Of a stretch of 52,387 nucleotides of DNA, positions 5,452-52,387 are shown one piece after another. Position numbers and translations under genes: made by a program. The DNA lies in the IMG/VR virus record IMGVR_UViG_3300021378_000034, positions 1 through 52,387 of that record. One strand, 5' to 3'. The notes under the pieces are model-generated. The model was not told the DNA's origin. It saw only the letters and a program-made list of their open reading frames with translations, and ran no database searches. How positions within the stretch are numbered: position 1 is the stretch's first letter; every line of letters begins with the position of its first letter. This DNA is from a virus (taxonomy: Duplodnaviria; Caudoviricetes).

Positions 5452-5736
5452 ATGGAAAACCAAGAAAACAAAATTAGCCAAGAACAATTAGAAGAACTAC
5501 AAGGATTTGTAGGTAAGCTTAATCAAGCTGCTTCTCAAATTGGAAACCTAGAATTACAAAAACACCAGCTTAACCACGCTGCAGCAGAAGTTCAACAAGA
5601 CTTGAACAAGTTGCAAGCTAAGCTAGAGGAAAAGTACGGAAAAATTAAAATTGATATTCAAACTGGAAACTATGAACCTATTGAAGAAGAAGGTGGGGAA
5701 GAAATCGTAGGTCCAGAAGTATTAAAGAAAGCGTAG
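5452..5736 (+). CDS. Hypothetical coiled-coil protein
   Basis: Q/E/L-rich heptad pattern; tightly packed in the operon. Confidence 0.6.
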   Translation: MENQENKISQEQLEELQGFVGKLNQAASQIGNLELQKHQLNHAAAEVQQDLNKLQAKLEEKYGKIKIDIQTGNYEPIEEEGGEEIVGPEVLKKA

Positions 5737-12633: not shown

Positions 12634-12636
12634 AAA

Positions 12637-39965: not shown

Positions 39966-40375
39966 TCTTTTTGATTTTGTGGTTTATATAAAGTGTAACC
40001 AGGAAACTGTTTAGTCATTAGATGTTTAAACAACTTCCATCGTATAGGGAAAGATTCATTTGGTCTGCCTTTTGTTTCTATTATAAAATTTTCGCCAATA
40101 AAATCTGGTGTATATTTAATCGGTAGTATTCTTTTACAGCCTCTATTTTTAAATATACCTTTGCTGTTAGCTTGTCTTTCATATACTTTGTTTTCAAAAT
40201 GAAAACCATTAATTAAAACAAAAGTTTCACCTTCGTATTTGGTTCTTATATTAGCAACTTTAAGAGCTTTATACATATATTTTTCTAAACCAGAAGCGAA
40301 GTGGATCCCGTCATAAATAACTTTCTTAGCTACAACAGGACCTCTTTTTCTTTTATATACTCTTTTCTTTCTCAT
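39920..40375 (-). CDS. Endonuclease I-like Holliday junction resolvase
   Basis: FASGLE...YE...YTPDF...IIETKG (PD-(D/E)xK, T7 gp3-like). Start set at MRKKR. Confidence 0.8.
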   Translation of the reverse strand: MRKKRVYKRKRGPVVAKKVIYDGIHFASGLEKYMYKALKVANIRTKYEGETFVLINGFHFENKVYERQANSKGIFKNRGCKRILPIKYTPDFIGENFIIETKGRPNESFPIRWKLFKHLMTKQFPGYTLYKPQNQKECDQVIELIKSPESI

Positions 40376-40571
40376 ATGTTTCTTTAGCTTTTTGTAAATA
40401 CAAAACAGCATCCATAAGTTCTTCTTGTAAATGATTTAGCCAATCGACTACTTTAGAAGGATCGTCTTCAAGTGTAATGCCATATTTTTCATAGCCTACA
40501 TCTGATCGCTGTTTAAATTTGTCTACGACTCGTTCAACAACAGGGTCTCTAAATTTACATTTACAGCTCAT
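40353..40571 (-). CDS. Small all-alpha NTP-pyrophosphatase-like protein
   Basis: GYEKYG...WLNHLQEELMDAVLY, with an EExxD motif. Confidence 0.55.
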   Translation of the reverse strand: MSCKCKFRDPVVERVVDKFKQRSDVGYEKYGITLEDDPSKVVDWLNHLQEELMDAVLYLQKAKETYEKEKSI

Positions 40572-41337
40572 CTTTCACAAATGTTCCGTTAATCATTTTA
40601 CCAGTTCTTTTGCTGATAACATTGTAAGCCGCTTTAATGCAAGCTTCAATTTTAACACCTCTTATGTGTGCTAAATTAGTTAATACAACTACAATATCAC
40701 CAATAGCATCTATAACTTCTAACTGATCATTTTTTAATAATGCTTTAGCTAACTCACCAGCTTCTTCTTGAAGCTTAACATATTGAGTATTTTGATCACC
40801 TTTTTCATATAAGCCTCTTACTTTGGCCCATGTTCTAATATTATCAAATACTTGTGAGTCATCGTCTGTATTTACTTCAAGTGATTCTAAGCTGTTATGT
40901 TTACAATAAAATTCCCATAGAGCTTTATTATATACATAGCTTCTATCACTATTAAACATAGACGTATGGCTATTAGACGCAATCCATTGAGCTGTTTCAA
41001 CATCTAATAATATTTTGCCAAAGTCTGTTTTCCACACCATTCCTAAACCGTCCATTAATCTACCTTTCAGTTTATTAACTGGAACAGGAAATGTTGTTGT
41101 TTGTTCTGTTACGTTTACTTTCATTTTAAATAAATTTTTATAAGGTTTAATATCTACTTTATAGCCATAAGACGTTTGAAGTTCTAGCTCTCTCTTTGAT
41201 ATATAATCTATATCATCAGACTGATCTAAAACTTCGTATTCATTAGGCTTATAACCCTGCGTTTGCGTAACTCTCTTATTAAGATTACGTGTAACGCCGA
41301 TTTTTTTACCCGGAATGTGATATAAATAATACATCAT
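40561..41337 (-). CDS. MazG-like pyrophosphohydrolase with GIY-YIG-like N-terminal extension
   Basis: C-terminal KLQEEAGEL...DAIGD; N-terminal YYLYHI..KKIGVT.NL.KR. Confidence 0.75.
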   Translation of the reverse strand: MMYYLYHIPGKKIGVTRNLNKRVTQTQGYKPNEYEVLDQSDDIDYISKRELELQTSYGYKVDIKPYKNLFKMKVNVTEQTTTFPVPVNKLKGRLMDGLGMVWKTDFGKILLDVETAQWIASNSHTSMFNSDRSYVYNKALWEFYCKHNSLESLEVNTDDDSQVFDNIRTWAKVRGLYEKGDQNTQYVKLQEEAGELAKALLKNDQLEVIDAIGDIVVVLTNLAHIRGVKIEACIKAAYNVISKRTGKMINGTFVKDEL

Positions 41338-42182
41338 TTGCCAACATTTAATTTTGCTGGTATTGCAGGCAGCGGGTTATAATTAGATATGGTTATTAAT
41401 TCTTTACTCGGTATATACAATTCATTATCAATTATATCAATACCTCTTTGCAAATCTAAGTCAGGCAAATCGTTTGTTTCTTTTCTATAAGCATAACAAT
41501 TTGCTGCATCAATATGATTTTTATATATATGGCAATCACCTAATTGCGCTATTAGTTTACCAGGAGTGTAATCTGTTTCTTTACATAGTAGCTCCAACAA
41601 TAAACCGTACATAGCTATGTCATAAGGCAATCCTAAAAATACATCAGCAGATCTTTGCATCCACATTAAATCCATTTTACCATTGTTGATATAAACTTGA
41701 AAAGCATAATGACAAGGAGGTAAGGCCATGTCTTTTAATTGGCCAACATTCCATGCATTAACCATCAATCTTCTTGAGCTTGGGTTTTCTTTTATGTTTT
41801 TAACTAAGTTAAATAATTGATCTTCATAAATTGTATAATAACCATTAATTACTTTCCAGTTACGCCATTGCGCACCGTAGACAGGGCCTAACGTTCCGTC
41901 TGTTCTGCCTGATCTTTTATAATCAGCATCCCAATAAGTTACATTATTATCCTGTAAGTATTTCATATCTGTTTTGCCGTGTAAAATCCAAAGCAATTCA
42001 GTCCTTGCGGAATTGAAATACATTCTCTTATTTGTTAATAAAGGAAAGCCTAAAGACATGTCATGAACAAGTTGTCTACCAAATACAGATTTAGTTCCAA
42101 CACCTGTTCTATCGTCTTTATCAACGCCTGATCCTAATATACCAGACACTAATCCTCTATATTCATTTTCTATATTTATCAT
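41334..42182 (-). CDS. thyA: Thymidylate synthase
   Basis: DRTGVGT, LGPVYG.QWR, MALPPCH, QRSADVFLGLP and HIY.NH. Start set at MINIE. Confidence 0.95.
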   Translation of the reverse strand: MINIENEYRGLVSGILGSGVDKDDRTGVGTKSVFGRQLVHDMSLGFPLLTNKRMYFNSARTELLWILHGKTDMKYLQDNNVTYWDADYKRSGRTDGTLGPVYGAQWRNWKVINGYYTIYEDQLFNLVKNIKENPSSRRLMVNAWNVGQLKDMALPPCHYAFQVYINNGKMDLMWMQRSADVFLGLPYDIAMYGLLLELLCKETDYTPGKLIAQLGDCHIYKNHIDAANCYAYRKETNDLPDLDLQRGIDIIDNELYIPSKELITISNYNPLPAIPAKLNVGK

Positions 42183-42438
42183 AATAATATTTACACATTC
42201 TATAATATTCTGGCCATAATGTTTCTTTATCGTATACGTGTGGAGCAAAGTTACACTTCTCTCCTTTTTTATACGGACCTAAGTTTATACATATTTTCCA
42301 TTGGCCATCTAATGGCATAGCCCAGGGTGATATTCTTATATTGTTTCTTGTACAATATAATTTCCAATCTTGTTCTTCTGGGGTTGGCATATACGGCGGA
42401 AGATAATTTGGTTTTCTTCTTTTGTATAAACTTTTCAT
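42163..42438 (-). CDS. Hypothetical protein
   Basis: Overlap-coupled ORF between primase-helicase and thyA. Confidence 0.55.
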   Translation of the reverse strand: MKSLYKRRKPNYLPPYMPTPEEQDWKLYCTRNNIRISPWAMPLDGQWKICINLGPYKKGEKCNFAPHVYDKETLWPEYYRMCKYYYDKYRK

Positions 42439-44162
42439 AAATCCCAGGGCATAGGTTCATTTTCGTGTATAGCAAGTTGATGTGGTATAAAACAAACTGA
42501 TCTTGGTTCCCAAGTAAAATGAGCTTCAGCTCCATTCTCTCCAAGGTTTTGAAACTTAACTTTTAAAACTTTAGCTTTAACAGTTTTGTTTTCATAATCT
42601 CTGTGAACTAATATACCGTGGTAAGATGCATCATACCATTCGCCTCCTCCTTTAATATTATACATAGTTGGTTCTTCAATCTTACCATTACTATCTTTAT
42701 ACATTTTAGTTGGATGCGCTACTATAAACACTAATACGTCGTACTTTTTTGCAAATATTTCAATCTTAGTTAAGTATTCCATAGTATACCTATTAACATC
42801 TTCAGTCTTGCAATCGACGTCTCTGACTTTATTAAATGGGTCTATAACCAAACATTTAATACCTTTACGCTTAACTAGCTCAGCACCTTTTCTTAATACT
42901 GATTCTAAAGTATAGCGTTCCATATCGATAAAGTAAAAGTTATCATTAACGTGTTCCGCTACTTGATTCCATTTATCGCTACCAATATCTGTTTTCTTTG
43001 GCATGTCTTGCCAAACTTTTCTCATTAACTTATGAGCATGTAAATAAGTAGGAGCGTTCTCAGGAGATGCAAATGCTGTTTTCCATTGGTACTTCTGATT
43101 ATAACCTACTACCATCTGATCAACGAAATCTGACTTTCCGCTACTAGGTATCCCAGTAACAGTGATAAACTGACCAGTATAAGTACTAAAAATATCGTCA
43201 AAATTAGGTAAACCAATTTGATACCCACGTTTGAAACCATTTCGTACAAAGTCTGTAATTTCATCTTCTATATCTTTTAAAGTTGTTACATTTTCTAATG
43301 GAACCGGTCTTGCTCCTTCAATACGTTTAATTAATTTCTCTTTACCGTATTTTATTAGATATTCATTTGCGTCTTTACAATCTTCAAATGTAGCTATGTA
43401 ACAAACTTCTGCTCCGAGTCTTCTTATAAATTCTTGTTGTAGTGCCTGACCTGGTTCGTCATTATCTACGGCTAGTATTACTCTTTCTTTATTTTCAAAG
43501 TAATCTATGCAGTTATCCAAATAATCTAAGTTATTTGAATTAAGTGTTGCTCCGTTAGGAACTGATATTGCATTTTTAATTCCAGCTTCATGAAGCGCTA
43601 ATACATCTATTTCGCCTTCTGTTATTACACAATCGTCATAACCAACTATACTGTTAATGTTATAAAATATCTTCTCAGCACCTTTATATAATTTGAAATT
43701 CTTTCTGCCGTCTCTATATTTAACATTAATAAGTTCGTCACCCATAATGTAATTAAACTGAATTGTATTCTCGGACTTGCCGGTCTGAGGCATAAATTCT
43801 TTACCTTCTGTAACATTTAAGTCATCTAAAGTTTTTTGAGATATACCTCTTGTTTTAAACCATTCGTATACTTTAGAGCCTAATTGCTTAGGATCAACAA
43901 CATTTAACGCATCGGGCCTGACATAATCTTTTAAGGCAGACCCTTTACGTTCGTAAGTATGTAATTGAAATGATGAATCACAATGATGACAAGTACCCAA
44001 TCCTCTTTCCCAATCGTAAGAAGCACACTTCTGTTTTCTATTCTCAGGTTTTCTATCAGACGAACACAGGGGACAAATCCCCTGTGCTTTACCAACATCT
44101 AAATTGTGTTGGTTAAACTGGTCGATTAAAAAACCATTAATCTCCGTGTTGTTTACTTGCAT
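42435..44162 (-). CDS. Primase-helicase (T7 gp4/Twinkle-like)
   Basis: Zn finger CPLC...CHHC, TOPRIM ITEGEID...DNDEPG, Walker A GIPSSGKS, VIDP and VAHP. Confidence 0.93.
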   Translation of the reverse strand: MQVNNTEINGFLIDQFNQHNLDVGKAQGICPLCSSDRKPENRKQKCASYDWERGLGTCHHCDSSFQLHTYERKGSALKDYVRPDALNVVDPKQLGSKVYEWFKTRGISQKTLDDLNVTEGKEFMPQTGKSENTIQFNYIMGDELINVKYRDGRKNFKLYKGAEKIFYNINSIVGYDDCVITEGEIDVLALHEAGIKNAISVPNGATLNSNNLDYLDNCIDYFENKERVILAVDNDEPGQALQQEFIRRLGAEVCYIATFEDCKDANEYLIKYGKEKLIKRIEGARPVPLENVTTLKDIEDEITDFVRNGFKRGYQIGLPNFDDIFSTYTGQFITVTGIPSSGKSDFVDQMVVGYNQKYQWKTAFASPENAPTYLHAHKLMRKVWQDMPKKTDIGSDKWNQVAEHVNDNFYFIDMERYTLESVLRKGAELVKRKGIKCLVIDPFNKVRDVDCKTEDVNRYTMEYLTKIEIFAKKYDVLVFIVAHPTKMYKDSNGKIEEPTMYNIKGGGEWYDASYHGILVHRDYENKTVKAKVLKVKFQNLGENGAEAHFTWEPRSVCFIPHQLAIHENEPMPWDL

Positions 44163-44173
44163 TAATTAACTAT

Positions 44174-44482
44174 TTAAAATGGTAAATCATCTGCTGGTGC
44201 CGGAGCAGCTACAGCTTGTGCTGGTTGGTCTGATCTTGGTGCAGCGCCAACATTATCTCCATTTGTCCAAACTACTTGAACATTACCTAAATAAACTTTA
44301 GGATTTTTAGCTTCTCTTTCCTCTTTGGATTGAGCAACTACAACCGGTCCTTGATTACCAAACTGATCTACTTCGTCATTTATTGTAATCGTAATAGGTA
44401 AATATTTACCCTTCTTACCAACAATGATCTTGTCCTTTGGTATCTCGTTAAGGTTGATACTTGTTTTAATTATACTAGCCAT
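44174..44482 (-). CDS. Probable single-stranded DNA-binding protein
   Basis: Small beta-rich protein with a flexible tail ending DDLPF; lies in the replication module. Confidence 0.7.
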   Translation of the reverse strand: MASIIKTSINLNEIPKDKIIVGKKGKYLPITITINDEVDQFGNQGPVVVAQSKEEREAKNPKVYLGNVQVVWTNGDNVGAAPRSDQPAQAVAAPAPADDLPF

Positions 44483-44483
44483 A

Positions 44484-44702
44484 TTATACTGCTGTTTGAA
44501 ATAAGTTATTGAACATAGTTCTTAGCTCAGTAGTTCCTACTGTAGCTCCCGTAGCTTGTAATCTACGTCTGAAGTTATCAGCTTTTTTGCTATACGCATG
44601 CAATCCATCATTAGATGTTTTGTTAGCGTAAAACTCCGTTGTTGGAAATGTCATTCCAGTCATTGCACATAATTTAGTTGTTGCTTTTTTTCTTCTTGCC
44701 AT
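44484..44702 (-). CDS. Hypothetical protein
   Basis: 72-aa basic ORF in the operon. Confidence 0.55.
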   Translation of the reverse strand: MARRKKATTKLCAMTGMTFPTTEFYANKTSNDGLHAYSKKADNFRRRLQATGATVGTTELRTMFNNLFQTAV

Positions 44703-44714
44703 AATATAAGGGTT

Positions 44715-45446
44715 TTAAAGGGTTAAATTCATAAAGTATTGTGAAGGTTCAAATCCTTCGGTTTTAAAAAATAAGTCGTAAGCCTCAGTGGCTCTTTTAA
44801 CTTTAGCTTCACCTGACTTATAAAAATCTGGTGAACAATCAATAACTGCGATTTGATGAGTGTTCTTATCCATTACCATGAATACAAATTCGTAGCCAAA
44901 CAATTTACTGTAAATATATGCTTGACTATCGTAATTGTAACGGTAAGCGGAACGCCTGAAAGCGTTTATGTCGGACGTGGTTTTCAGGTCAATGATTAAC
45001 TGATCATCATGGTTTATGATGTCAGCTTTTCCTTTCCACATATTACCTTCAAGCTCCACTATACCTGGCTTCTCATACTCAACATCAATGCCACGAACTA
45101 ATCCGCGACATATATCGTTCTTCATTAATTTCTCGGTCATCAATTCTATCTTGTCAACTTCGTGTTGTAATAAACACAATTCGCCGTTAGATATTTCTTT
45201 GTAATGTTTTGTATTTCTTGTACTGCTCTCAACTATCTTAAACTTCTTAAGCTTATCCGGTTCGAGTATTGCAGTATGGAAATATCCACCTACAAGAAAT
45301 GCTGATGACATTTTTGATTGCTGTCCTAAAGCTAAAGGATTAGTAAGCAAAGTAGATATGTCACTGTTACTTAAGTATTGTTTACCAAACTTGCCGTAAT
45401 AATGTTCATCTTCTTTTAACTTTTCTAATACCTTTTCTTTGTTCAT
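44715..45446 (-). CDS. PD-(D/E)xK exonuclease (RecE/ExoVIII-like)
   Basis: LSNSDI, G..FH.AILEP, KGKAD, IIDLKTT and Y.Y..QA..Y. Confidence 0.85.
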   Translation of the reverse strand: MNKEKVLEKLKEDEHYYGKFGKQYLSNSDISTLLTNPLALGQQSKMSSAFLVGGYFHTAILEPDKLKKFKIVESSTRNTKHYKEISNGELCLLQHEVDKIELMTEKLMKNDICRGLVRGIDVEYEKPGIVELEGNMWKGKADIINHDDQLIIDLKTTSDINAFRRSAYRYNYDSQAYIYSKLFGYEFVFMVMDKNTHQIAVIDCSPDFYKSGEAKVKRATEAYDLFFKTEGFEPSQYFMNLTL

Positions 45447-46022
45447 TTACAGGGTTGTTAATTCAATTAATTCTTTTTTAATGTTAGGAGTTAAATTATA
45501 CTTGGCTTCGATCACTGCCATTTTACCACCTGCTCTAATATAGTCTAAAGCTTTTTGAAATTTAGCGTCTTGATTAGACTTTATTTCAGCTTTGTTTGCG
45601 ACTGGTTTAGGCTTTGCAATGGTTGTTTTACCGTGATCATTTGATGCATCACTATCTTGTGTATCATCTATAAGTAACAAGTTGCCAAGTGCATACTTCT
45701 TACCATAACTCGAAGCGGACCCAAACTTTTGTGGAGTTTGCATACCCTTCTGATTTAAGTCTACACCAACTAATGCTGTAGCTTTTATTTCCATACCTTT
45801 TTCATCTTGAATAACAGCTGTGCTTTCAAGTATAGGCATAGGTTCAGTTGAGATTAATTTTTCTTTAATCCTTACCGATACTCCTAACTCTAAGAGATAG
45901 GGTTTAATTGCTTCGAGAATGTCTTCGGCTGATCTGAAGTTGTATTTGCCGAATGAGTTAAATCTACTTTTCTTCGATTTAAATTTTGTCTGAATGGTTG
46001 ACAGTTTTTGGTTTAGGGTCAT
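45447..46022 (-). CDS. ERF-family single-strand annealing protein
   Basis: GKYNFRSAEDIL and the GSASSYGKKYAL..L..I.D..D.D signature. Confidence 0.88.
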   Translation of the reverse strand: MTLNQKLSTIQTKFKSKKSRFNSFGKYNFRSAEDILEAIKPYLLELGVSVRIKEKLISTEPMPILESTAVIQDEKGMEIKATALVGVDLNQKGMQTPQKFGSASSYGKKYALGNLLLIDDTQDSDASNDHGKTTIAKPKPVANKAEIKSNQDAKFQKALDYIRAGGKMAVIEAKYNLTPNIKKELIELTTL

Positions 46023-46075
46023 ACTAATATTATTACATGTTAATTGTTAAACTTAAGTTCTCTATTTACCGTAAC

Positions 46076-46840
46076 CTACAGGTAATCAAGCACTTGCGAG
46101 CTATCTACGTTATCGATTAAGGTTTGTATAGCATCACGTTTTATTTGTGAAATTCTTACATGAGCGGTACTCACGCTGATTCCAACTTGTGAAGCTATAT
46201 CATTTGCTGAATGCTTATCACAATCTAAACCGTAACTTAACCTCAATACATTATATTGTCTTTCATCTAAATGCGTTCGCATTAGACCTAGCAAATAAGT
46301 ATTTAATAAAGCTATGTTATATGGTTCAGACTTATCTATAACTTGATAAGCCATATTTTCATCATCATTAAGGCTTGCATCAATTGAGGAGAACACAGAA
46401 TTAAAAAACATTGCAACTAACTTTTCATCTTTTGGATTCTTACGTATTTCATTTAGTTTATGCTCTGGTATTCTTATCTCACCTCTATTCATATCAACAG
46501 CGCGTCTTATTGCACCCTTAATTCGTTTAGATAAAAATGATTTTAATGTTTTTTCTTGGTCTTCTGATTTAAGTAACAGCTCTCTATCTAATTTATTTAC
46601 TGCCGCTATTAAAGCATAATTACCGTCTTGTATAAGATCGAGTATAGACAGTATGCCAGAAGCTTGATTTGTTGTTGATTGTTTTCTCGCTATGTTTTCA
46701 ACTAGCGGTAAAAAGTTTATTATTAGCTCATCATTAGTTAATTTAGTATAGTCACCGTCAATTGGTTTATTAACTTCTTCAATTGCTTCTTCAACTTCTT
46801 CTTTATATTTTAAATATATTGGTATATTATATTTTTTCAT
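46076..46840 (-). CDS. Phage sigma-70-family factor
   Basis: Region 2 LPLVENIAR...DLIQDG...RIKGAI...IRIP; region 4 LDERQ..VL.L.YGL...RISQI...A. Confidence 0.88.
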   Translation of the reverse strand: MKKYNIPIYLKYKEEVEEAIEEVNKPIDGDYTKLTNDELIINFLPLVENIARKQSTTNQASGILSILDLIQDGNYALIAAVNKLDRELLLKSEDQEKTLKSFLSKRIKGAIRRAVDMNRGEIRIPEHKLNEIRKNPKDEKLVAMFFNSVFSSIDASLNDDENMAYQVIDKSEPYNIALLNTYLLGLMRTHLDERQYNVLRLSYGLDCDKHSANDIASQVGISVSTAHVRISQIKRDAIQTLIDNVDSSQVLDYL

Positions 46841-47475
46841 AGTTCATTATTAAGTAGTTCTTTTTCTGTTTTCAATTGATTGCCCATATTTCTGTGTATT
46901 GTTCTTGTTGTACAACCTAATAACTTGGCTAATTTACTTATTGTTATTTTTTGTTTCTCATGGTTTAGGTCAAGCATGCATTGGTATATATCGTCTTCCG
47001 AAACTTTTTTACCCTTGCCTATTAACGTACCCACAATACTCAACTTTTGCGACAATGTTAACCCCGTGCCGTGTTTGAATATTACTTTACGTATTCTATT
47101 ACGAGGAGGTGTATCACCGATGCTAAGTACTTCATTAATCATATTGTCAAGTATTTTTTGCTTCATAAAAAATGTAACAAAACCGTTTTCTTTGTTTGCA
47201 ATAAAATTAAATATAGATCGCATATCATCATCAAGCGAAACGTCATCACCTTCGATGCCATCTGCATTTAAATAGTATAAAACTAAAAAATGCCACTTTA
47301 AAGATTTATATGTGGTTATCTTTGCTTTACTGCGAAATAGATTGTAGCATTGGAACGTACCTTCCGCGTAGTAATCATATAGATCAGTTGACTCGGTAGG
47401 CACATCAGTAATAGGATTGCGATAATATATCACTCTCTTATTATCTAGCCAATTTAATTTTCTATCTTGTGACAT
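46837..47475 (-). CDS. Hypothetical protein with C-terminal HTH
   Basis: ITISKLAKLLGCTTRTIHR. Confidence 0.65.
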   Translation of the reverse strand: MSQDRKLNWLDNKRVIYYRNPITDVPTESTDLYDYYAEGTFQCYNLFRSKAKITTYKSLKWHFLVLYYLNADGIEGDDVSLDDDMRSIFNFIANKENGFVTFFMKQKILDNMINEVLSIGDTPPRNRIRKVIFKHGTGLTLSQKLSIVGTLIGKGKKVSEDDIYQCMLDLNHEKQKITISKLAKLLGCTTRTIHRNMGNQLKTEKELLNNEL

Positions 47476-47598
47476 TAGCTTGCTACTAATTATTATTTAT
47501 TAGCTTTCGTCGCTCTTCTCGGCTTTTGAAATTTCTTAATTTTTGTTGCAATGTTAAAAACATTTGCATTCACTAAATGCTTTGCATTTTTTGTTGTT

Positions 47599-47949
47599 TT
47601 ACTCATTTAATTCAATTTTAATGTTAGTCCATTTTCCCATAGTGCCGACATTTACAAGGAAATCAATACGTTTAGTAAAACGTTTATTCATTCTGTCTTG
47701 TACAGTCCAGTCACCATCAAATTCTCTGCTTATGCCTTCTATGCAGACGCTAGCTCCAAACGTGTAACCCAACTTTTCAAGGTCTCTTGAAACTGCAATC
47801 CAGCGATGCCCAGCAGGGTTATCAGGATTAATTTGTTTCATGGAGGCAGTGACGAATGGAGTGCTGTCTGTCTGTTCAGGTACTGCGTGGTAAACCGTAG
47901 CGGTAACCCACGTCTTCAGGAATAGTGTTAAAAGTATAAGGTGTTTCAT
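47599..47949 (-). CDS. Secreted 3D/RlpA-like (double-psi beta-barrel) protein
   Basis: Hydrophobic N-terminus; ATVY...TAS...IAVSRDL...VQDRM...RIDF. Confidence 0.7.
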   Translation of the reverse strand: MKHLILLTLFLKTWVTATVYHAVPEQTDSTPFVTASMKQINPDNPAGHRWIAVSRDLEKLGYTFGASVCIEGISREFDGDWTVQDRMNKRFTKRIDFLVNVGTMGKWTNIKIELNE

Positions 47950-48385
47950 TTTTATTTACTATTTTTGCTTTTTCAATAATGTAATACGTCCAATACCCGT
48001 GTATAGCATTTGACCGTTTAAACTCGTCAGGCATACACTGAGGTGGTTCGTTAAATTCACCAGCCGGTATGTTAGGCGGATATTTAGATAACGCTTCTTT
48101 GCATTTAGTTATTGTTAGATGTTTTTTATTATAACGTGCGGTATATTCCTCACCTAAACCTAGCATGTGATTATATAACCATCTGTACTGGTTTTTGTTT
48201 TCACGACACCAAATACTTGATGGATGATTTAGGTGTGCAGTTTTATAAGGCACGTCTTCATTGCCATAGTATCTATGGGCCGTACAAAGCATTTGGGCTG
48301 ACTCTAAGATCATTTTAACTTTATGCTTATCATAAACATAGCTTGCCGCTTTATAAGGGTTCTTATGTAAATAAAATATATTCAT
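47876..48385 (-). CDS. Pyrimidine-dimer DNA glycosylase-like protein
   Basis: MNIFYL...DKH.VKMILESAQML...YK..H.NHPS.IW pattern. Confidence 0.65.
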   Translation of the reverse strand: MNIFYLHKNPYKAASYVYDKHKVKMILESAQMLCTAHRYYGNEDVPYKTAHLNHPSSIWCRENKNQYRWLYNHMLGLGEEYTARYNKKHLTITKCKEALSKYPPNIPAGEFNEPPQCMPDEFKRSNAIHGYWTYYIIEKAKIVNKNETPYTFNTIPEDVGYRYGLPRST

Positions 48386-48548
48386 AAATTTTTGAATAAA
48401 GTTCTTACTGCGAAAGCAAGAAAGATAATTAATATAATTATAATACTATTCATATTTTTTATTGTTTAATCGGTTATAATGTTGATCTAGTAATAGATTG
48501 GCAACTTCTATACTTATCATATTGTCGTTATACAATTGCCATACTAAC

Positions 48549-48662
48549 TTATTCATAGTTATATATTTCTTCTAGTTCACACATTAACATTTCATCTATT
48601 TCTTCTATAGAATATCTATAAAAGTTTGGGTGTGTGTACGCTTTAGTCCAAGGATTATTCAT
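48549..48662 (-). CDS. Small hypothetical protein
   Basis: 37 aa from MNNPW, overlapping the ligase stop. Confidence 0.35.
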   Translation of the reverse strand: MNNPWTKAYTHPNFYRYSIEEIDEMLMCELEEIYNYE

Positions 48663-49503
48663 AATTTCTAATAGTTTTAAATAGTGGATGTCTGTAACTA
48701 CCGGCTTGAGTACGTTCGAAGTAAGTGAAAGTAGCTCGCTGACCGATATAGTCATGAATGTTGTTTAGTATATTAGCTAAGTCTTTGTAGTTGTAGCCTT
48801 TACCGGGAGGGCAACCAAATTTGTTACCGTCATCGTCCATCATTAAGAACTTACCGAGGGTGCCTTCGCGTTTACCTTTACCAATTTCATAACCTACAAT
48901 AGTGGCTTCGGTGTCACTAAAGTCTTTAAACTTTTGTAAGTTGTAAGAACGTTTTTGTTCGTAAGGTTTATCTAGTCTCAATATGGAGCCTTCGTAACCA
49001 TTATTCAAATTGTATTGGTGTATGATGTTAGCAGCGTCTTTAGATAAAGCGTGTTTAGTTTCAACATATTTAACACAGTAAGAATACATATCACTCGTAA
49101 CAAGTTGATTCATTCTGTAACCGTATGGTTGATTCATTACGGTTTCTATGTAGTCATAGCAATGAAATTGTATCATTTTACTAGCCTCTGATCTGTCTGA
49201 GGCCGTTGGTTTTTGTTTTCTGACTAAGGATATGATTTTTTCGAAATCATCTTTTAGATCGTGGTTGTATAATTCACCGTCAAGTACAACATCAGGTTGT
49301 TGCGTAAAGAAATAGTGCAACGAGTTTGTAATGTGGGCTATGTTAAAAAATTGTTTACCTGTACGGGAGTGTGCTACAACTTCGTTGTTGTCATCGAGTT
49401 GTATAACACAACGTACGCCGTCAAGCTTAGGTTGTATAAATACATTCTCGGACCAGTCGACAGGTTTTTTGTCTACTTTGTATGCGAGCATTGGTTTTAT
49501 CAT
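48655..49503 (-). CDS. ATP-dependent DNA ligase
   Basis: QPKLDGVR (KxDG), LDGELY, YEGSILR and K.K motifs. Confidence 0.92.
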   Translation of the reverse strand: MIKPMLAYKVDKKPVDWSENVFIQPKLDGVRCVIQLDDNNEVVAHSRTGKQFFNIAHITNSLHYFFTQQPDVVLDGELYNHDLKDDFEKIISLVRKQKPTASDRSEASKMIQFHCYDYIETVMNQPYGYRMNQLVTSDMYSYCVKYVETKHALSKDAANIIHQYNLNNGYEGSILRLDKPYEQKRSYNLQKFKDFSDTEATIVGYEIGKGKREGTLGKFLMMDDDGNKFGCPPGKGYNYKDLANILNNIHDYIGQRATFTYFERTQAGSYRHPLFKTIRNYE

Positions 49504-49757
49504 AATTCTTTTTTAATTTTTTCTATTCTTTTTTGTATGAGTGCTGCTTGTTCGTATTCTTCGTTAGCCTCATATTCTTTCATTACACCAGTTAAACTTT
49601 CTATTTCTTCAAGTAATAAATCGTTTGTACTATAGTGTTTAGAGTCCTGTTGTCGTACGACGTCAAGCCCGTAAGTTGCCGTTTCAGGATTTATAAATTC
49701 ATTATATAAATCGGTGCGTATTCGGCGGTATAGCATTTTGTATTCTTCGTCTGTCAT
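49500..49757 (-). CDS. Hypothetical protein with UVR-like C-terminal helical hairpin
   Basis: M..YEANEEYEQAALIQKRI. Confidence 0.55.
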   Translation of the reverse strand: MTDEEYKMLYRRIRTDLYNEFINPETATYGLDVVRQQDSKHYSTNDLLLEEIESLTGVMKEYEANEEYEQAALIQKRIEKIKKEL

Positions 49758-49764
49758 ATATTGT

Positions 49765-49788
49765 TATTATACGTTTGTGTTCGTGTTT
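49765..49788 (-). promoter_or_regulatory. Repeated early promoter-like motif, copy 1
   Basis: AAACACGA-N8-GTATAATA, 7 nt before the ATG at 49757. Confidence 0.7.
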
Positions 49789-50158
49789 AGTCTGTGCTAT
49801 TTTCAATTTTATCTTGCACTTCAATGTACAGTTCATGAAGCATATCGTCTACATATAATTCATCGTAAATTTCTTCATCAATAAATATATCAAGACCGTC
49901 TTTAATACAACCTATAATTTCATCGGCCATACCTGTAGCATAATAGTATACGTTTTCAGGGTTAAAGCCGTAGTCATCATTAGCGTGTGCCCAATATACA
50001 TTATAAGAGTCTGCAGTGTATACAGATTCAAATATGTAGTCGCAAGTATTAGTACCCATATAATCAGTTGTGATTGTAGAGTTGTAATAGTCTAATATCC
50101 AAGTCTTTGCTTCATCAGGTGTAACGTCGTACACATCTTCTTTATATATCTTTTCCAT
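49787..50158 (-). CDS. Acidic hypothetical early protein
   Basis: 123 aa, strongly D/E/Y-rich. Confidence 0.65.
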   Translation of the reverse strand: MEKIYKEDVYDVTPDEAKTWILDYYNSTITTDYMGTNTCDYIFESVYTADSYNVYWAHANDDYGFNPENVYYYATGMADEIIGCIKDGLDIFIDEEIYDELYVDDMLHELYIEVQDKIENSTD

Positions 50159-50159
50159 A

Positions 50160-50408
50160 TTAATCTAGTAATACCATGTAGGCTTTAGGGTTATTTGTTC
50201 TGAACCACGTTAAACCGTCTTGCCAGTTTTTGATGGTAGAATCATTTAAATTTGTTGAGGGCATCATTGCACACCCCATAACAAAGTCGTACATACTTAA
50301 TTCTAAGTTGTTAAGTTCGTAGCTTTCGCCAGAGAATGGATTTGTTACACTATCGCCTTGATTGTATACGGTTCCATTAAACCATTTAGGTAATTTATTT
50401 TCTTTCAT
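50160..50408 (-). CDS. Hypothetical early protein
   Basis: Tightly packed ORF. Confidence 0.65.
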   Translation of the reverse strand: MKENKLPKWFNGTVYNQGDSVTNPFSGESYELNNLELSMYDFVMGCAMMPSTNLNDSTIKNWQDGLTWFRTNNPKAYMVLLD

Positions 50409-50409
50409 A

Positions 50410-50889
50410 TTACGTTGTTAAATATTGTTCTTTACAAAATTTTTCTTGTTTCCATTGCGTGTATCCCATACCGGGTTCGCTGTATTTTTTAATTAAACTA
50501 TCAGGACTACCTACAAATATATTTTTATTTGTGTAATTATCCCAACAACTTATCCATACATCAGGTTTACCAACCCATATTATCCATGTGTATTGGTGCT
50601 CAATTGATTCAACACTAGGATATAGGTATTGACTGTTGTAGTGAAAGTCGTAAACTAAATGACTTGCAATTCTAGAACCATCACCAAACTGAGTGAAGCC
50701 TTGGTCTTTTTGCATATAGTTTACCCAGTTAGCTAATTCTACACCACGCCATGAAGGGTAACCGTCATGATGCATGTACATGTTTACATAGCTATCGTCG
50801 TTTACTTTTTTGGGTTCGACCGCAAAGCCTTGCTCAAATTGTTTCGCCGCTGACCGATTTACGATCATTGTAAGGTTTCTTGTGCTCAT
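50410..50889 (-). CDS. Hypothetical early protein
   Basis: MSTR...Y.HHDGYP..G..L pattern, recalled from small phage proteins. Confidence 0.65.
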   Translation of the reverse strand: MSTRNLTMIVNRSAAKQFEQGFAVEPKKVNDDSYVNMYMHHDGYPSWRGVELANWVNYMQKDQGFTQFGDGSRIASHLVYDFHYNSQYLYPSVESIEHQYTWIIWVGKPDVWISCWDNYTNKNIFVGSPDSLIKKYSEPGMGYTQWKQEKFCKEQYLTT

Positions 50890-51085
50890 TTAATATTAAT
50901 TTTAGTATATATTCGTATAATTCTTTTTCACGCTTCATGCTTTTAAGAACAGATTTGTGTAGATCAATAGGTATAAACCTAGTTGCAGTACCGTCATCTA
51001 TTTCTTTTTGTTTATCTGATACTTCCCACTCAAGGGCAAATATTTTTGCGCAGATTTTATCGTGTGCTCGTTCGTTTAACGTCAT
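50834..51085 (-). CDS. Hypothetical early protein
   Basis: Coupled ORF. Confidence 0.55.
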   Translation of the reverse strand: MTLNERAHDKICAKIFALEWEVSDKQKEIDDGTATRFIPIDLHKSVLKSMKREKELYEYILKLILNEHKKPYNDRKSVSGETI

Positions 51086-51309
51086 TATTTTTTGATAATG
51101 TTATCGCCGTATAGCACGGAATCAAGTGATCTGTCATAGAAGTCTGCCCAAGTTTGCAGTTGCCTGACGTCGTCAATAGTTAATTGATACCACGCTGTGT
51201 GACTCATTAATCTGTATTTTAGTTGTTTAGCGGAACCGTATTGTTTCGCATTTGCATTAAGATTTTTTTTCAATTCAGGAAATAATCTTTGATAAAGTGA
51301 TTTGTTCAT
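51085..51309 (-). CDS. Hypothetical early protein
   Basis: First ORF after promoter motif copy 2. Confidence 0.6.
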   Translation of the reverse strand: MNKSLYQRLFPELKKNLNANAKQYGSAKQLKYRLMSHTAWYQLTIDDVRQLQTWADFYDRSLDSVLYGDNIIKK

Positions 51310-51326
51310 AGTTTATTAATTTATTA

Positions 51327-51350
51327 TATTATACAATTAGATTCGTGTTT
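51327..51350 (-). promoter_or_regulatory. Repeated early promoter-like motif, copy 2
   Basis: AAACACGA-N8-GTATAATA. Confidence 0.7.
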
Positions 51351-51358
51351 GTTTTGTG

Positions 51359-51514
51359 CTAAACCATTTCTTCAATTACACCGATTAACTCGCTGATTAT
51401 CAATACTATAGTTGCCGCTATTATGTTGAAAGGTATTAGCATATACCCGCCAATTCTTACTGTACTCTTCAGAATTGACACATAAAAATGTTTCGTTGCA
51501 TTCGGATATTTCAT
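51359..51514 (-). CDS. Small membrane protein (not in ORF track)
   Basis: 51 aa MKYPNATKHFYVSILKSTVRIGGYMLIPFNIIAATIVLIISELIGVIEEMV. Confidence 0.6.
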   Translation of the reverse strand: MKYPNATKHFYVSILKSTVRIGGYMLIPFNIIAATIVLIISELIGVIEEMV

Positions 51515-51517
51515 TAG

Positions 51518-51589
<72 letters not shown>

Positions 51590-51594
51590 TTAAG

Positions 51595-51662
51595 TGGTGA
51601 CCAACCTGTGAGCAATGTCGTAAGCTTCTCACGGTGAATGCAACGTGTGACTAATTTCACCA
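51595..51662 (-). ncRNA. Candidate small structured RNA
   Basis: TGGTGA/TCACCA closing stem and inner ACC-GTGAG/CTCAC-A-GGT; fills the gap between two tRNA-like genes. Confidence 0.35.
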
Positions 51663-51670
51663 GTCTGTAG

Positions 51671-51749
51671 TGGACGTGGCAGGATTCGAACCTGCGTTCA
51701 AGTTAGTGTGGCTTTCGCCTCCTATTTCTTGTCTTACCATTTCACGCCC
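51671..51749 (-). ncRNA. Mini tmRNA-like RNA (tRNA-like domain only)
   Basis: GGGCGUG/CACGUCC-A acceptor with G3:U70, stemless D-loop AAAUGGUAAGA, CAAG/CUUG helix, AAC linker and perfect T-arm GCAGG-UUCGAAU-CCUGC. Confidence 0.75.
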
Positions 51750-51753
51750 TTAT

Positions 51754-51902
51754 GAGAGGCACCAGTTGTGGACAGGTAGTTAACTAGTATTGTCATTTAT
51801 CCACACTTTCTGTTTCGTACTGGTACAGTAGAACGCCATTTTTACTTGCCATTACACTATTGTACCGATCTACCTAACGTGACCTGTATGCCGCCGCCTC
51901 TC
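51754..51902 (-). ncRNA. Candidate 149-nt structured RNA
   Basis: GAGAGGCG/UGCCUCUC closing stem with inner GGUACA/UGUACC and UGUGGAUA/UGUCCACA hairpins. Confidence 0.5.
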
Positions 51903-51920
51903 TGCCAGCTATTCACTTAT

Positions 51921-51983
51921 GTGTGTGTAATACACTTCCGTACGTTCACATATGTCCGTCGACAGTCGACACCACATACACAC
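51921..51983 (-). ncRNA. Candidate small structured RNA
   Basis: GUGUGU/ACACAC ends with an inner UAUGU..GUCG/CGAC..ACAUA hairpin. Confidence 0.3.
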
Positions 51984-52011
51984 CTAATTAAGCTACTCGT
52001 CTTGCTACTTT

Positions 52012-52200
52012 TTACTTTCTACGCCAAGATCTGTGAACTCTGTCACTTAATTCTTGACTTACTATTTGTACTTCTAGTACTTGTTTGTTTGCAATAATAG
52101 GAATATAACTATATTGCTTTGTTTCGCTACAGTTTACACAGGTTGAATAACCTAGTGCTAGTCTGCCTGCTGGAATTTTATTGTTACATTTACATTTCAT
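52012..52200 (-). CDS. DksA/TraR-type C4 zinc-finger-like small protein
   Basis: CKC...IPAGRLALG...CVNC. Start set at MKCKC, downstream of the promoter motif. Confidence 0.6.
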   Translation of the reverse strand: MKCKCNNKIPAGRLALGYSTCVNCSETKQYSYIPIIANKQVLEVQIVSQELSDRVHRSWRRK

Positions 52201-52205
52201 ATTAT

Positions 52206-52229
52206 TATTATCCATTAATAATCGTATTT
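52206..52229 (-). promoter_or_regulatory. Repeated early promoter-like motif, copy 3
   Basis: AAATACGA-N8-GGATAATA, 5 nt before the ATG at 52200. Confidence 0.65.
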
Positions 52230-52333
52230 AGTTTGTAATTGTAACGTCTAAACCACTCAATTTCTATACGTTCAGCGTCTTGCCTAGTAATTTTAAGTAG
52301 TTTAACGTGCTTATGTCTCCTTTTAGTCTTCAT
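52208..52333 (-). CDS. Possible small basic protein
   Basis: 41-aa ORF MKTKRRHKH...; overlaps promoter copy 3. Confidence 0.35.
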   Translation of the reverse strand: MKTKRRHKHVKLLKITRQDAERIEIEWFRRYNYKLNTIING

Positions 52334-52387
52334 AATTATCTAAACCTGTATGTAATTTTTCTATTGTAGCACACATTATCATGTGCA

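What the first reader, a model, noticed from the sequence alone, without database searches (positions are those of the whole stretch)
51671..51749. 79-nt mini-tmRNA: an alanine-type tRNA-like domain with no mRNA-like domain
Seen: the minus strand reads GGGCGUG AAAUGGUAAGA CAAG AAA UAG GA GGC GAAA GCC ACA CUA A CUUG AAC GCAGG UUCGAAU CCUGC CACGUCC A. It has a 7-bp acceptor stem with G3:U70 and A73, an 11-nt stemless D-loop, a short helix, a 3-nt linker and a perfect T-arm. It has no D-stem and no 7-nt anticodon loop. Known: G3:U70/A73 is the AlaRS identity element, and a stemless D-loop ending GAC plus helix 2a and a short linker is the SmpB-binding architecture of the tmRNA TLD. Here the usual roughly 300-nt pseudoknot/tag region is replaced by a GAAA-capped hairpin, in non-permuted order. 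Inference: a clean, folded, TLD-only RNA. It could sequester SmpB and block tagging of phage proteins, act at stalled ribosomes without adding a degradation tag, or decoy tmRNA/tRNA-cleaving defence nucleases. TLD-only tmRNAs are known to me from some mitochondria, not from phages.
Basis: partly seen in the sequence, partly recalled or inferred. Interest (0 to 1): 0.9.

Follow-up and report, generated by a model that had tools for sequence, protein, structure and literature searches.

The report
Phage tag-less mini-tmRNA gene
This marine phage carries a real 79-base gene for only the alanine-accepting, tRNA-like end of the bacterial ribosome-rescue RNA (tmRNA); one such RNA was already described in mycobacteriophage DS6A, so this is a new member of a known but little-studied kind that probably interferes with the host's rescue-and-tagging system.

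Summary
ARAGORN does not call it. Rfam's tmRNA model aligns both ends at 33.4 bits, below its 47-bit cut-off.

It is not an isolated oddity. A covariance model finds 49 matches in the window plus 81 related viral loci. They lie on the coding strand, and 45 of 48 lie 3-690 nt downstream of a homologous zinc-finger ORF. There are three acceptor types. Pair 4:69 changes between C:G, A:U and G:C, while G3:U70 and A73 stay. One type scores 63.9 bits on Rfam tmRNA and has the D-loop of Bacteroidota tmRNA.

No relative has a credible tag frame, a tRNA-Ala anticodon loop, an integrase or SmpB.

Mycobacteriophage DS6A has an 80-nt 'TLD only' tmRNA (PMC4131195; located). This scan has also reported the kind on other phage DNA. 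Function is inferred, not shown.

The parts
51671..51749 (-). 79-nt TLD-only tmRNA-like RNA gene, ending at discriminator A73. The CCA tail is not encoded; the next bases are CUA.
   Evidence: Sequence; fold; Rfam tmRNA 33.4 bits; model R1 67.1 bits.
51743..51749 (-). Acceptor stem, 5' strand GGGCGUG (G3 at 51747).
   Evidence: Pairs 1-7 with 66-72 are all standard pairs. In A1, pair 3:70 is G:U in 37 of 38 family sequences, while 4:69 is A:U 16, C:G 16, G:C 6.
51732..51742 (-). Stemless 11-nt D-loop AAAUGGUAAGA. A8 and the GG pair are near-invariant in the family.
   Evidence: A8, G12, G13 in at least 90% of 38 sequences.
51699..51731 (-). Helix 2 (CAAG/CUUG) enclosing the interior module AAAUAGGAG-GC-GAAA-GC-CACACUAA.
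   Evidence: The same module occurs in 7 distinct TLD contexts and 4 free-standing contexts.
51696..51698 (-). 3-nt linker AAC before the T-arm.
   Evidence: a 3-nt linker is the modal value among the 42 distinct members.
51679..51695 (-). T-arm GCAGG-UUCGAAU-CCUGC.
   Evidence: Three of the 5 stem pairs change on both sides across the family.
51671..51678 (-). Acceptor stem 3' strand CACGUCC (U70 at 51674) plus discriminator A73 (51671).
   Evidence: The trailer after A73 is CUA in 33 of 37 distinct family members, CAA in 4 and CCA in 0.
51752..52005 (-). Context: two structured, ORF-free RNA modules directly upstream, between the zinc-finger ORF and the TLD.
   Evidence: Contigs of four RNA libraries lie on 51756-52001 with 0-1 differences. 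Two have an end at 51756-51760, just 5' of the TLD. No Rfam match.
51517..51589 (-). Context: tRNA-Met (CAU) 81 nt downstream on the same strand, also with A73 followed by CUA.
52012..52215 (-). Context: 67-aa cysteine-rich (CxC...CxxC) ORF that heads the cassette.
   Evidence: Homologs lie 3-690 nt upstream of the TLD in 45 of 48 family hits. No Pfam family.

Best explanation
The element is a functional phage gene for a tag-less mini-tmRNA. It is an RNA descended from the tRNA-like domain of (Bacteroidota-type) tmRNA that has lost all pseudoknots and the tag reading frame.

Shown here:
- It folds as a TLD.
- It belongs to a conserved, positionally orthologous family in related marine phages.
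- The alanine identity set (G3:U70, A73, G1:C72, G2:C71) is kept while neighbouring pairs covary.

Inferred mechanism:
- It is transcribed with the upstream zinc-finger gene and the neighbouring small RNAs.
- RNase P cuts it at its 5' end, its 3' end is trimmed, and host enzymes add CCA.
- Host AlaRS charges it with alanine, and it binds host SmpB (and EF-Tu).
- Having no resume codon, it cannot tag proteins.
- Its most likely effect is to compete with host tmRNA for SmpB and for stalled ribosomes. That would damp ssrA tagging and the associated mRNA and protein decay during infection.
- A less likely effect is tag-less rescue that donates a single alanine.
For: Anatomy and statistics:
- Searches give the sequence and fold.
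- The Rfam tmRNA model aligns both TLD halves: 33.4 bits, E 1.7e-11 and E 1.9e-13 per record.
- The published DS6A 'TLD only' tmRNA scores 43.2 bits, also below the 47-bit cut-off. It has the same layout.

Family:
- R1 finds 49 matches at E <= 0.001 in 1.13 Mb, made up of the window plus 81 loci (80 chosen through the neighbouring ligase gene, one through the RNA's own 5' half). All matches in loci are on the + strand, as is the ligase.
- A homolog of the zinc-finger ORF lies 3-690 nt upstream in 45 of 48 hits, for all three acceptor types.
- In A1 (38 sequences), 3:70 is G:U in 37 and A:U in 1. Pair 4:69 is A:U 16, C:G 16, G:C 6. Three T-stem pairs change on both sides. A73 is invariant.
- The one A3:U70 copy (L027 5703-5782) is followed 3 nt later by a second, G3:U70 copy.
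- Type C (G001 59053-59133, 78 nt) scores 63.9 bits on RF00023, above the cut-off.
- Its D-loop GACCUGGUUUUGAC is the one found in ARAGORN-confirmed tmRNAs of 34 genomes, all titled as Bacteroidota taxa.
- The unconstrained MFE reproduces acceptor plus T-arm in 37 of 42 distinct members. Helix 2 of at least 3 bp is present in 40 of 42, although the interior sequences are unrelated.

[quoted passage not shown] 2009). PMC11915505 says the DS6A form inhibits endogenous tmRNA in E. coli (passages read).

The phage encodes no SmpB of its own: 0 of 5 records, 3 of them at least 95% complete.
Against: - No direct evidence of expression of the 79-nt RNA. RNA-library contigs give almost no cover over 51658-51751. 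They are contigs, so this is not evidence of absence.
- Alanylation, SmpB binding and any effect on tagging are untested.
- The window's score on Rfam tmRNA is below the cut-off, and type B (L029) gives no RF00023 match at all.
- The same phage group holds other tRNA-like frames without alanine identity: 25 of 70 non-canonical frames.
- The interior modules also occur outside TLDs. So the tRNA-like frame could serve processing or stability rather than trans-translation.
- A1 was chosen by a script that required full pairing, so its '100% paired' figure is by construction. A2 is fitted to the model.
- I could not read Mao et al. 2009 itself.
Confidence: 0.6

Rival explanations
1. tRNA-like processing and stability scaffold. 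The acceptor/T-arm frame mainly recruits RNase P, 3' trimming enzymes and the CCA-adding enzyme. These cut a polycistronic precursor into stable small RNAs, as with MALAT1-mascRNA or laboratory 'tRNA scaffolds'. The interior hairpin module or the upstream RNA is the real payload.
For: - The TLD sits in a tightly packed ORF-free cassette with no minus-strand terminator-like site.
- RNA-library contigs cover 51756-52001, and two have an end 7-11 nt 5' of the TLD. One contig of run X17 continues from the upstream module into the 5' half of a type-B TLD.
- Twenty-five of 70 non-canonical tRNA-like frames in these loci lack G3:U70/A73. They include a recurring UAGCUAG/CUAGUUA-C family and 41-nt minihelices.
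- Interior modules recur in several frames and also free-standing.
Against: - RNase P and the 3' processing enzymes do not need G3:U70 or A73 (established knowledge). Yet the wobble pair is kept in 37 of 38 sequences while its neighbour 4:69 takes three forms.
- Type C passes Rfam's tmRNA cut-off and has the Bacteroidota tmRNA D-loop.
- This role is compatible with, and does not exclude, a trans-acting TLD.
Confidence: 0.2
2. Decoy or sponge. The RNA mimics tmRNA or tRNA to absorb a host defence nuclease that cuts tRNA or tmRNA, or to bind RNase R. This would resemble the t(m)RNA fragments of the AcrIIIA1 anti-CRISPR complex.
For: The shape is tRNA/tmRNA-like. PMC11662646 (passages read) reports t(m)RNA fragments that co-purify with a phage anti-CRISPR protein and bind RNase R.
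Against: - There is no anticodon loop, which is the usual target of anticodon nucleases.
- No partner protein was identified; neighbouring ORFs have no Pfam family.
- A decoy would not obviously need alanine identity.
Confidence: 0.1
3. Non-functional remnant: a decaying tmRNA pseudogene, or an attachment-site copy of the host ssrA 3' end.
For: Phages often integrate at tmRNA genes (PMC10865867 passages). One relative (L015 5746-5834) is a broken chimera of a TLD 5' half and a tRNA 3' half.
Against: - Both halves are present and pair perfectly.
- Stems are kept through compensatory changes in dozens of relatives.
- No tyrosine integrase in 0 of 5 records.
- The 3' half differs from the Bacteroidota tmRNA 3' ends that I recovered.
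Confidence: 0.03
4. A decoding tRNA-Ala that has lost its D-stem, as an earlier follow-up of this scan concluded for a different 70-nt phage RNA.
For: Two of the 80 loci listed for the pattern scan (of at least 119 matching stretches) are 69-nt RNAs that ARAGORN calls tRNA-Ala(tgc).
Against: The window's hairpin ends in a GAAA tetraloop. None of the 42 distinct family members has a 7-nt loop of the form N-U-[U/C/G]GC-R-N. ARAGORN calls no tRNA here.
Confidence: 0.01

Closest known systems
'TLD only' (CDS-less) tmRNA of Mycobacterium phage DS6A (Mao et al. 2009, as cited in PMC4131195 and PMC11915505; JN698994.1 28478-28560)
   Same: - Phage-encoded.
- 80 nt against 79 nt.
- 7-bp acceptor stem with G3:U70 and A73.
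- Stemless D-loop with UGG, helix 2 closing a short hairpin, a short linker and a T-arm.
- No tag frame or pseudoknots.
- No encoded CCA; the trailer is CUA in both.
- Both score below the Rfam tmRNA cut-off (43.2 and 33.4 bits).
   Different: - Unrelated phage and host: a temperate actinophage with an integrase, against an integrase-less marine phage whose relatives point to Bacteroidota.
- Only 32.3 bits on my family model.
- The D-loop is 11 nt, not 14, and the linker is AAC, not GCAC.
- The window's RNA sits in a cassette of small RNAs and belongs to a family with three acceptor types and swapped interiors.
Bacterial one-piece tmRNA (Rfam RF00023), in particular Bacteroidota tmRNA
   Same: Acceptor stem with G3:U70/A73, stemless D-loop, helix 2a and T-arm. 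The sister type C has the Bacteroidota D-loop GACCUGGUUUUGAC and scores 63.9 bits.
   Different: Lacks the whole core of about 300 nt (pseudoknots, resume codon, tag frame, helix 5). It therefore cannot template a tag. CCA is not encoded.
Organellar CDS-less tmRNAs (jakobid and oomycete mitochondria, Rfam RF02544; Mallomonadaceae plastids of ~65 bp)
   Same: A tRNA-like domain without a tag frame. These are thought still to act with SmpB (PMC11915505 section 12 passage).
   Different: No match to RF02544 in the window or in 4 relatives at the TLD position. Those are organellar genes with an imported SmpB, not a virus acting on a host that has its own full tmRNA.
Alanine minihelix / acceptor-T-arm substrates of AlaRS (recalled from the biochemical literature, not from a call)
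   Same: Acceptor plus T-arm with G3:U70 and A73 is the part of tRNA-Ala that AlaRS needs. The 47-nt relative L031 4065-4111 is little more than that.
   Different: Those are laboratory constructs. Here it is a natural, conserved gene with a D-loop surrogate and helix 2.

Membership tests
tmRNA tRNA-like domain (Rfam RF00023 ends) | Significant match of both TLD halves to the curated covariance model, at or above the gathering score. | tested here: inconclusive
   Window 33.4 bits against a cut-off of 47, E 1.7e-11; it is the best family of the tRNA clan. Sister type C scores 63.9 bits (met), type B gives no match, and the published DS6A TLD scores 43.2 bits.
tmRNA tRNA-like domain | 7-bp acceptor stem with G3:U70 and discriminator A73 (alanine identity). 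| tested here: met
   Kept in 37 of 38 family sequences while 4:69 varies.
tmRNA tRNA-like domain | No D-stem, a D-loop with a GG pair, helix 2a in place of the anticodon stem, and a canonical T-arm. | tested here: met
   (helix 2 of at least 3 bp in 40 of 42; D-loop mostly 10-12 nt).
tmRNA (full, functional in tagging) | mRNA-like region with a resume codon and a tag reading frame ending in a stop, flanked by pseudoknots. | tested here: not met
   Only 23 nt replace the 314-position core. The 175-185-nt relatives carry an inserted hairpin module. ARAGORN's tag ERTEVYYIC* for L057 is not kept in L085, which has a 10-nt deletion there.
TLD-only (CDS-less) tmRNA, DS6A type | A stand-alone TLD of about 65-85 nt with alanine identity and no tag frame, encoded as a gene rather than being a fragment of a longer tmRNA. 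| tested here: met
   There is no longer tmRNA anywhere in the record.
TLD-only tmRNA | Aminoacylation with alanine; binding of SmpB; inhibition of, or participation in, trans-translation. | not testable with these tools
   Needs biochemistry. Only literature statements on a DS6A-like molecule are available.
Canonical tRNA (RF00005) / D-armless tRNA-Ala | Anticodon stem with a 7-nt loop carrying an anticodon. | tested here: not met
   GAAA tetraloop. Not called by ARAGORN. 0 of 42 members have an Ala-type loop.
Mitochondrial tmRNA (RF02544) | Match to the mt-tmRNA covariance model. | tested here: not met
   No match in G000. Two weak matches elsewhere in relatives (15.4 and 13.7 bits against a cut-off of 65).

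The most novel reading that the evidence does not exclude
The alanine-type TLD is a natural 'tRNA scaffold': a conserved, processable, possibly SmpB- or ribosome-targeted chassis whose interior hairpin is a swappable cargo. The same interior modules occur in TLDs of different acceptor types, in other tRNA-like frames and as free-standing hairpins. One relative even has a second module nested in the tip of the first. On this reading, these phages shuffle small functional RNA modules between frames. The TLD would deliver or stabilise them, rather than acting only as an SmpB sponge.
Probability: 0.2. Interest if true: 0.75.

Novelty: new member of a known kind. Interest (0 to 1): 0.45.

Why it matters
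Trans-translation is the main bacterial ribosome-rescue and quality-control pathway. How phages deal with it is barely studied.

In the library I searched, the only described phage TLD-only tmRNA is that of DS6A (searches; PMC4131195 and PMC11915505).

This locus shows that the same solution exists in an unrelated, abundant group of marine phages that probably infect Bacteroidota. Selection on alanine identity is visible there. A narrow sequence pattern alone finds at least 119 viral contigs carrying such RNAs, and standard annotation misses them: ARAGORN called 78 of the 80 listed as nothing.

The family gives a ready comparative data set for asking three questions: which TLD nucleotides matter without the mRNA part, whether phages block or exploit ribosome rescue, and why the interior is so freely exchanged.

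Tried and rejected
Searches and tests that led nowhere or ruled something out:
- Megablast of window 40000-52387 against GenBank phages found nothing.
- blastn with the element found only T-arm matches to tRNAs, including 'tRNA-OTHER' and 'tRNA-TERM' features of N4-like phages. These proved to be ordinary or intron-bearing tRNA-likes unrelated to the TLD.
- The Rfam mt-tmRNA model gave no match at the TLD.
- A phage-encoded SmpB was not found in 5 records. A tyrosine integrase was not found in 5 records.
- Pfam on 8 neighbouring ORFs gave only a sub-threshold UVR motif. The 'DksA/TraR-like' label for the zinc-finger ORF is therefore unverified.
- Cellulophaga phage phi10:1 is the closest isolate by primase (44% identity). 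R1 finds only its two tRNAs, so it has no TLD.
- I looked for a conserved tag-like reading frame in the upstream module and in the 185-nt variants by eye. The frames are not conserved between relatives, so I rejected a 'two-piece tmRNA' reading.

Expression:
- RNA-library contigs leave 51611-51751 almost uncovered. They are contigs of short-read assemblies and cannot show small structured RNAs, so I draw no conclusion.
- The depth figures are not used to rank expression.

Limits:
- Mao et al. 2009 could not be opened. What I say about it rests on how two later papers cite it.
- Supplementary files were not consulted.

Full report
**1. What is there**

The window is an IMG/VR virus record of 52,387 bp, estimated 81% complete. 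It has tail-fibre, primase-helicase, ribonucleotide reductase and ATP-dependent ligase genes. It has no close relative among GenBank phages.

ViennaRNA's unconstrained minimum-energy fold is the proposed one:
- a 7-bp acceptor stem with G3:U70, then A73;
- 11 unpaired bases;
- a 4-bp helix and an inner GAAA-capped hairpin;
- an AAC linker;
- a 5-bp T-stem with loop UUCGAAU.

The energy is -26.8 kcal/mol, z = -3.46, and 1 of 200 shuffles folds as well.

ARAGORN finds only the neighbouring tRNA-Met. Nothing at this place reaches an Rfam gathering score. With permissive thresholds the best model of the tRNA clan is tmRNA RF00023 at 33.4 bits (cut-off 47, E 1.7e-11). Both ends align, and the 314-position core is replaced by 23 nt.

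**2. It has many relatives**

*Collecting them.* Using the ligase 2.2 kb downstream as a handle, I fetched 80 related viral loci with 52-96% ligase identity. An exact search with the element's 5' half found two more stretches.

A script that asks for a T-arm plus a 7-bp acceptor starting with GG found the element in most of these loci. So did a covariance model, R1, built from 38 distinct sequences. R1 gives 49 matches at E <= 0.001 in the window plus 81 loci, 1.13 Mb in all. Every match in a locus is on the ligase strand.

*Same genomic slot.* In 45 of 48 hits a homolog of the window's 67-aa cysteine-rich ORF lies 3-690 nt upstream. The other three loci are cut off at that side. The elements are therefore positional orthologs.

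*Three acceptor types.*
- Type A: GGGCGUG/CACGUCC (the window's type).
- Type B: GGGAGUG/CACUUCC.
- Type C: GGGGGUG/CACCUCC.

*Covariation in A1.*
- Pair 4:69 is A:U 16, C:G 16, G:C 6.
- Three T-stem pairs change on both sides.
- Pair 3:70 is G:U in 37 of 38, and A73 is invariant.
- The covariation score exceeds all 500 shuffles and all slid controls.

Caveat: A1 was pre-filtered for complete pairing, so '100% paired' is by construction. The G:U at 3:70 was not imposed.

*The model-fitted set A2 (42 distinct sequences).* Pair 3:70 is G:U in 39 and A:U in 3. Two of those three are mis-set 5' ends: in L057 the true start is GGGCGUG at 5725, and in L075 it is GGGCAUA near 3576. The one real exception, L027 5703-5782, is followed 3 nt later by a second copy with G3:U70.

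*Folding each member.*
- The unconstrained fold equals the acceptor-plus-T-arm fold in 37 of 42.
- A closing helix 2 of at least 3 bp is present in 40 of 42, although the interiors are unrelated in sequence.

*Lengths.* They run from 47 nt (L031) through 69-103 nt to 175-185 nt (L084, L085, L057).

**3. Is it tmRNA-derived?**

Type C (78 nt) scores 63.9 bits on RF00023, above the curated cut-off. The window scores 33.4 bits, the 47-nt form 24.8 bits, and type B nothing.

Type C's D-loop is GACCUGGUUUUGAC. I scanned species-representative genomes with a loose pattern of that loop. Of those 80, 34 contain an ARAGORN tmRNA starting at the match. All 34 records are titled as Bacteroidota taxa (Bacteroidales, Flavobacteriales, Lutibacter, Cryomorphaceae and others), with tags such as GENNYALAA.

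The closest isolate by primase is a Cellulophaga phage at 44% identity. Together these results point to Bacteroidota hosts and to a TLD taken from their tmRNA.

Types A and B are more diverged. They share the slot, the architecture and even interior modules with each other.

**4. Alternatives tested**

- *Full tmRNA or a decaying one.* No relative has pseudoknots or a credible tag. ARAGORN's tag for L057 (ERTEVYYIC*) falls in an inserted hairpin module and is not kept in L085, which has a 10-nt deletion there. In the window a similar hairpin lies upstream, at about 51910-51990.
- *Decoding tRNA-Ala without a D-stem.* An earlier follow-up of this scan reached that conclusion for another RNA. 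Here the loop is GAAA, and 0 of 42 members have an Ala-type 7-nt loop.
- *Attachment site.* There is no integrase in 5 records, 3 of them at least 95% complete. Both halves of the stem are present.
- *The phage's own SmpB.* None in 5 records.

**5. Precedent**

PMC4131195 lists 'Mycobacterium phage DS6A (TLD only)'. It states that a similar molecule, chargeable or not, strongly inhibits tmRNA, perhaps by titrating SmpB, citing Mao et al. 2009 (passages).

PMC11915505 repeats this and adds CDS-less plastid forms of about 65 bp (passages).

I located the DS6A RNA at JN698994.1 28478-28560, where it scores 43.2 bits on RF00023. It is 80 nt long with G3:U70, A73, a stemless D-loop, helix 2, a small hairpin, a T-arm and a CUA trailer. 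It is an architectural twin of the window's RNA, but scores only 32.3 bits on R1.

Full-text searches for other descriptions of phage TLD-only tmRNAs returned only these two papers.

This scan has reported the same kind on other phage DNA many times, including two follow-ups on this marine phage group. My results agree with them.

**6. Spread**

Of the 80 loci listed, ARAGORN nothing and 2 a D-armless tRNA-Ala. Many carry the classic UUCGAC...GGAC marks of tmRNA, and some encode CCA.

In the ligase-linked family none encodes CCA. The trailer is CUA in 33 of 37 distinct members and CAA in 4. The neighbouring tRNA-Met also has A73 followed by CUA. This fits shared 3' maturation plus CCA addition, which is an inference.

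**7. Context and expression**

The TLD is the third unit of an ORF-free cassette on the minus strand:
- the zinc-finger ORF (52215-52012);
- two structured modules (about 52005-51752);
- the TLD;
- an 81-nt spacer;
- tRNA-Met (51589-51517).

No minus-strand terminator-like site was found in 51200-52387.

Contigs from four RNA libraries of four studies lie on 51756-52001 with 0-1 differences, and two have an end at 51756-51760. One contig of run X17 runs from the upstream module into letters that are the reverse complement of a type-B TLD 5' half. One contig of run X16 runs into a tRNA-Met 5' half instead. These are variants from relatives.

This is compatible with co-transcription and RNase P cleavage at the TLD's 5' end, but contigs cannot prove ends. 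The TLD itself has almost no cover, which says nothing either way.

**8. A complication that feeds the rival and the novel reading**

The same loci contain 25 other non-canonical tRNA-like frames without alanine identity, out of 70 found by a generic script; some may be chance. They include a recurring family of about 100-119 nt with acceptor UAGCUAG/CUAGUUA-C, and 41-nt acceptor-plus-T-arm minihelices.

The interior modules move between frames:
- The window's module GAAAUAGGAG...CACACUAAC occurs in 7 distinct TLD contexts of types A and B, and in 4 free-standing contexts.
- A second module, AACCRCGGCGWAAGCAAAGGU, occurs in 5 TLD contexts of types A and B and in 2 other contexts.

So the frame and the cargo evolve separately.

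**9. Verdict**

The element is a genuine, conserved gene for a TLD-only, tmRNA-derived RNA. It is a new member of the kind first described in phage DS6A, so it is not categorically new.

The most likely mechanism is inferred:
- maturation like a tRNA;
- alanylation through G3:U70/A73;
- binding of host SmpB;
- competition with host tmRNA, so that tagging is damped or replaced by tag-less rescue.

A processing or scaffold role is the main rival, and it may coexist with the first.

I put interest at 0.45. The kind is known, but its breadth, the visible selection on alanine identity and the swappable interior are not in print as far as my searches show.

Noticed in passing
window 51752-52005 (-): Two structured, ORF-free RNA modules lie directly upstream of the TLD: a long hairpin at about 51910-52000, and a domain at about 51752-51907 closed by GAGAGGC...GCCUCUC. 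Nearly identical contigs from four RNA libraries lie on them. There is no Rfam match, and the function is unknown.
   Followed up: partly
L084 4285-4469, L057 5725-5909, L085 150-324: In three relatives the GAAA tetraloop of the same TLD is replaced by an insert of 104-114 nt. The insert resembles the hairpin that lies upstream of the TLD in the window, so modules nest in each other's tips. ARAGORN then miscalls L057 as a tmRNA with the tag ERTEVYYIC*.
   Followed up: partly
L025 2768-2808, L028 3917-3957, L042 about 2034-2074, L016 about 1650-1693, L075 3576-3616: Conserved 41-nt minihelices (a 7-bp acceptor, a 9-nt connector with GG, and a T-arm) occur elsewhere in related phages. Most have A3:U70, not alanine identity.
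   Followed up: no
L005 5977-6089, L021 6089-6198, L045 6135-6235, L009 6084-6202: A second family of tRNA-like frames of 100-119 nt, with acceptor UAGCUAG/CUAGUUA, discriminator C and T-arm UGAGG/CCUCA. It occurs in the same cassette in relatives, several of which lack the Ala-type TLD.
   Followed up: no
window 51517-51589 (-): By eye, the phage tRNA-Met(CAU) has three G:C pairs at the base of the anticodon stem and a weak U1:A72 pair. These are initiator-like features. It too lacks an encoded CCA (A73 followed by CUA).
   Followed up: no
L001 435-537 (Escherichia phage UE-S5b, PP301341.1): Upstream of this N4-like coliphage's tRNA genes, a stretch matches Rfam tmRNA_permuted at 32.7 bits (cut-off 47). 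It contains a tag-like frame reading ANDDVVLMAA-stop, so it may be a phage tmRNA-like coding piece.
   Followed up: no
L152 and L157 (69-nt stretches found by the pattern): These are 69-nt RNAs that ARAGORN calls tRNA-Ala(tgc) despite the lack of a D-stem. They are the D-armless phage tRNA-Ala that an earlier follow-up of this scan described.
   Followed up: no
L015 5746-5834: A chimera of a type-B TLD 5' half with the 3' half of a tRNA-Met-like gene, with a broken T-stem. It is probably a recombination product that is decaying.
   Followed up: no
window 44735-44767 (+); L056 and L057 at about 12585-12790 (-): A conserved hairpin GAAGG-UUCAAAU-CCUUC followed by a U-rich run mimics a T-arm. It looks like an intrinsic terminator on the strand opposite the replication genes.
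   Followed up: no
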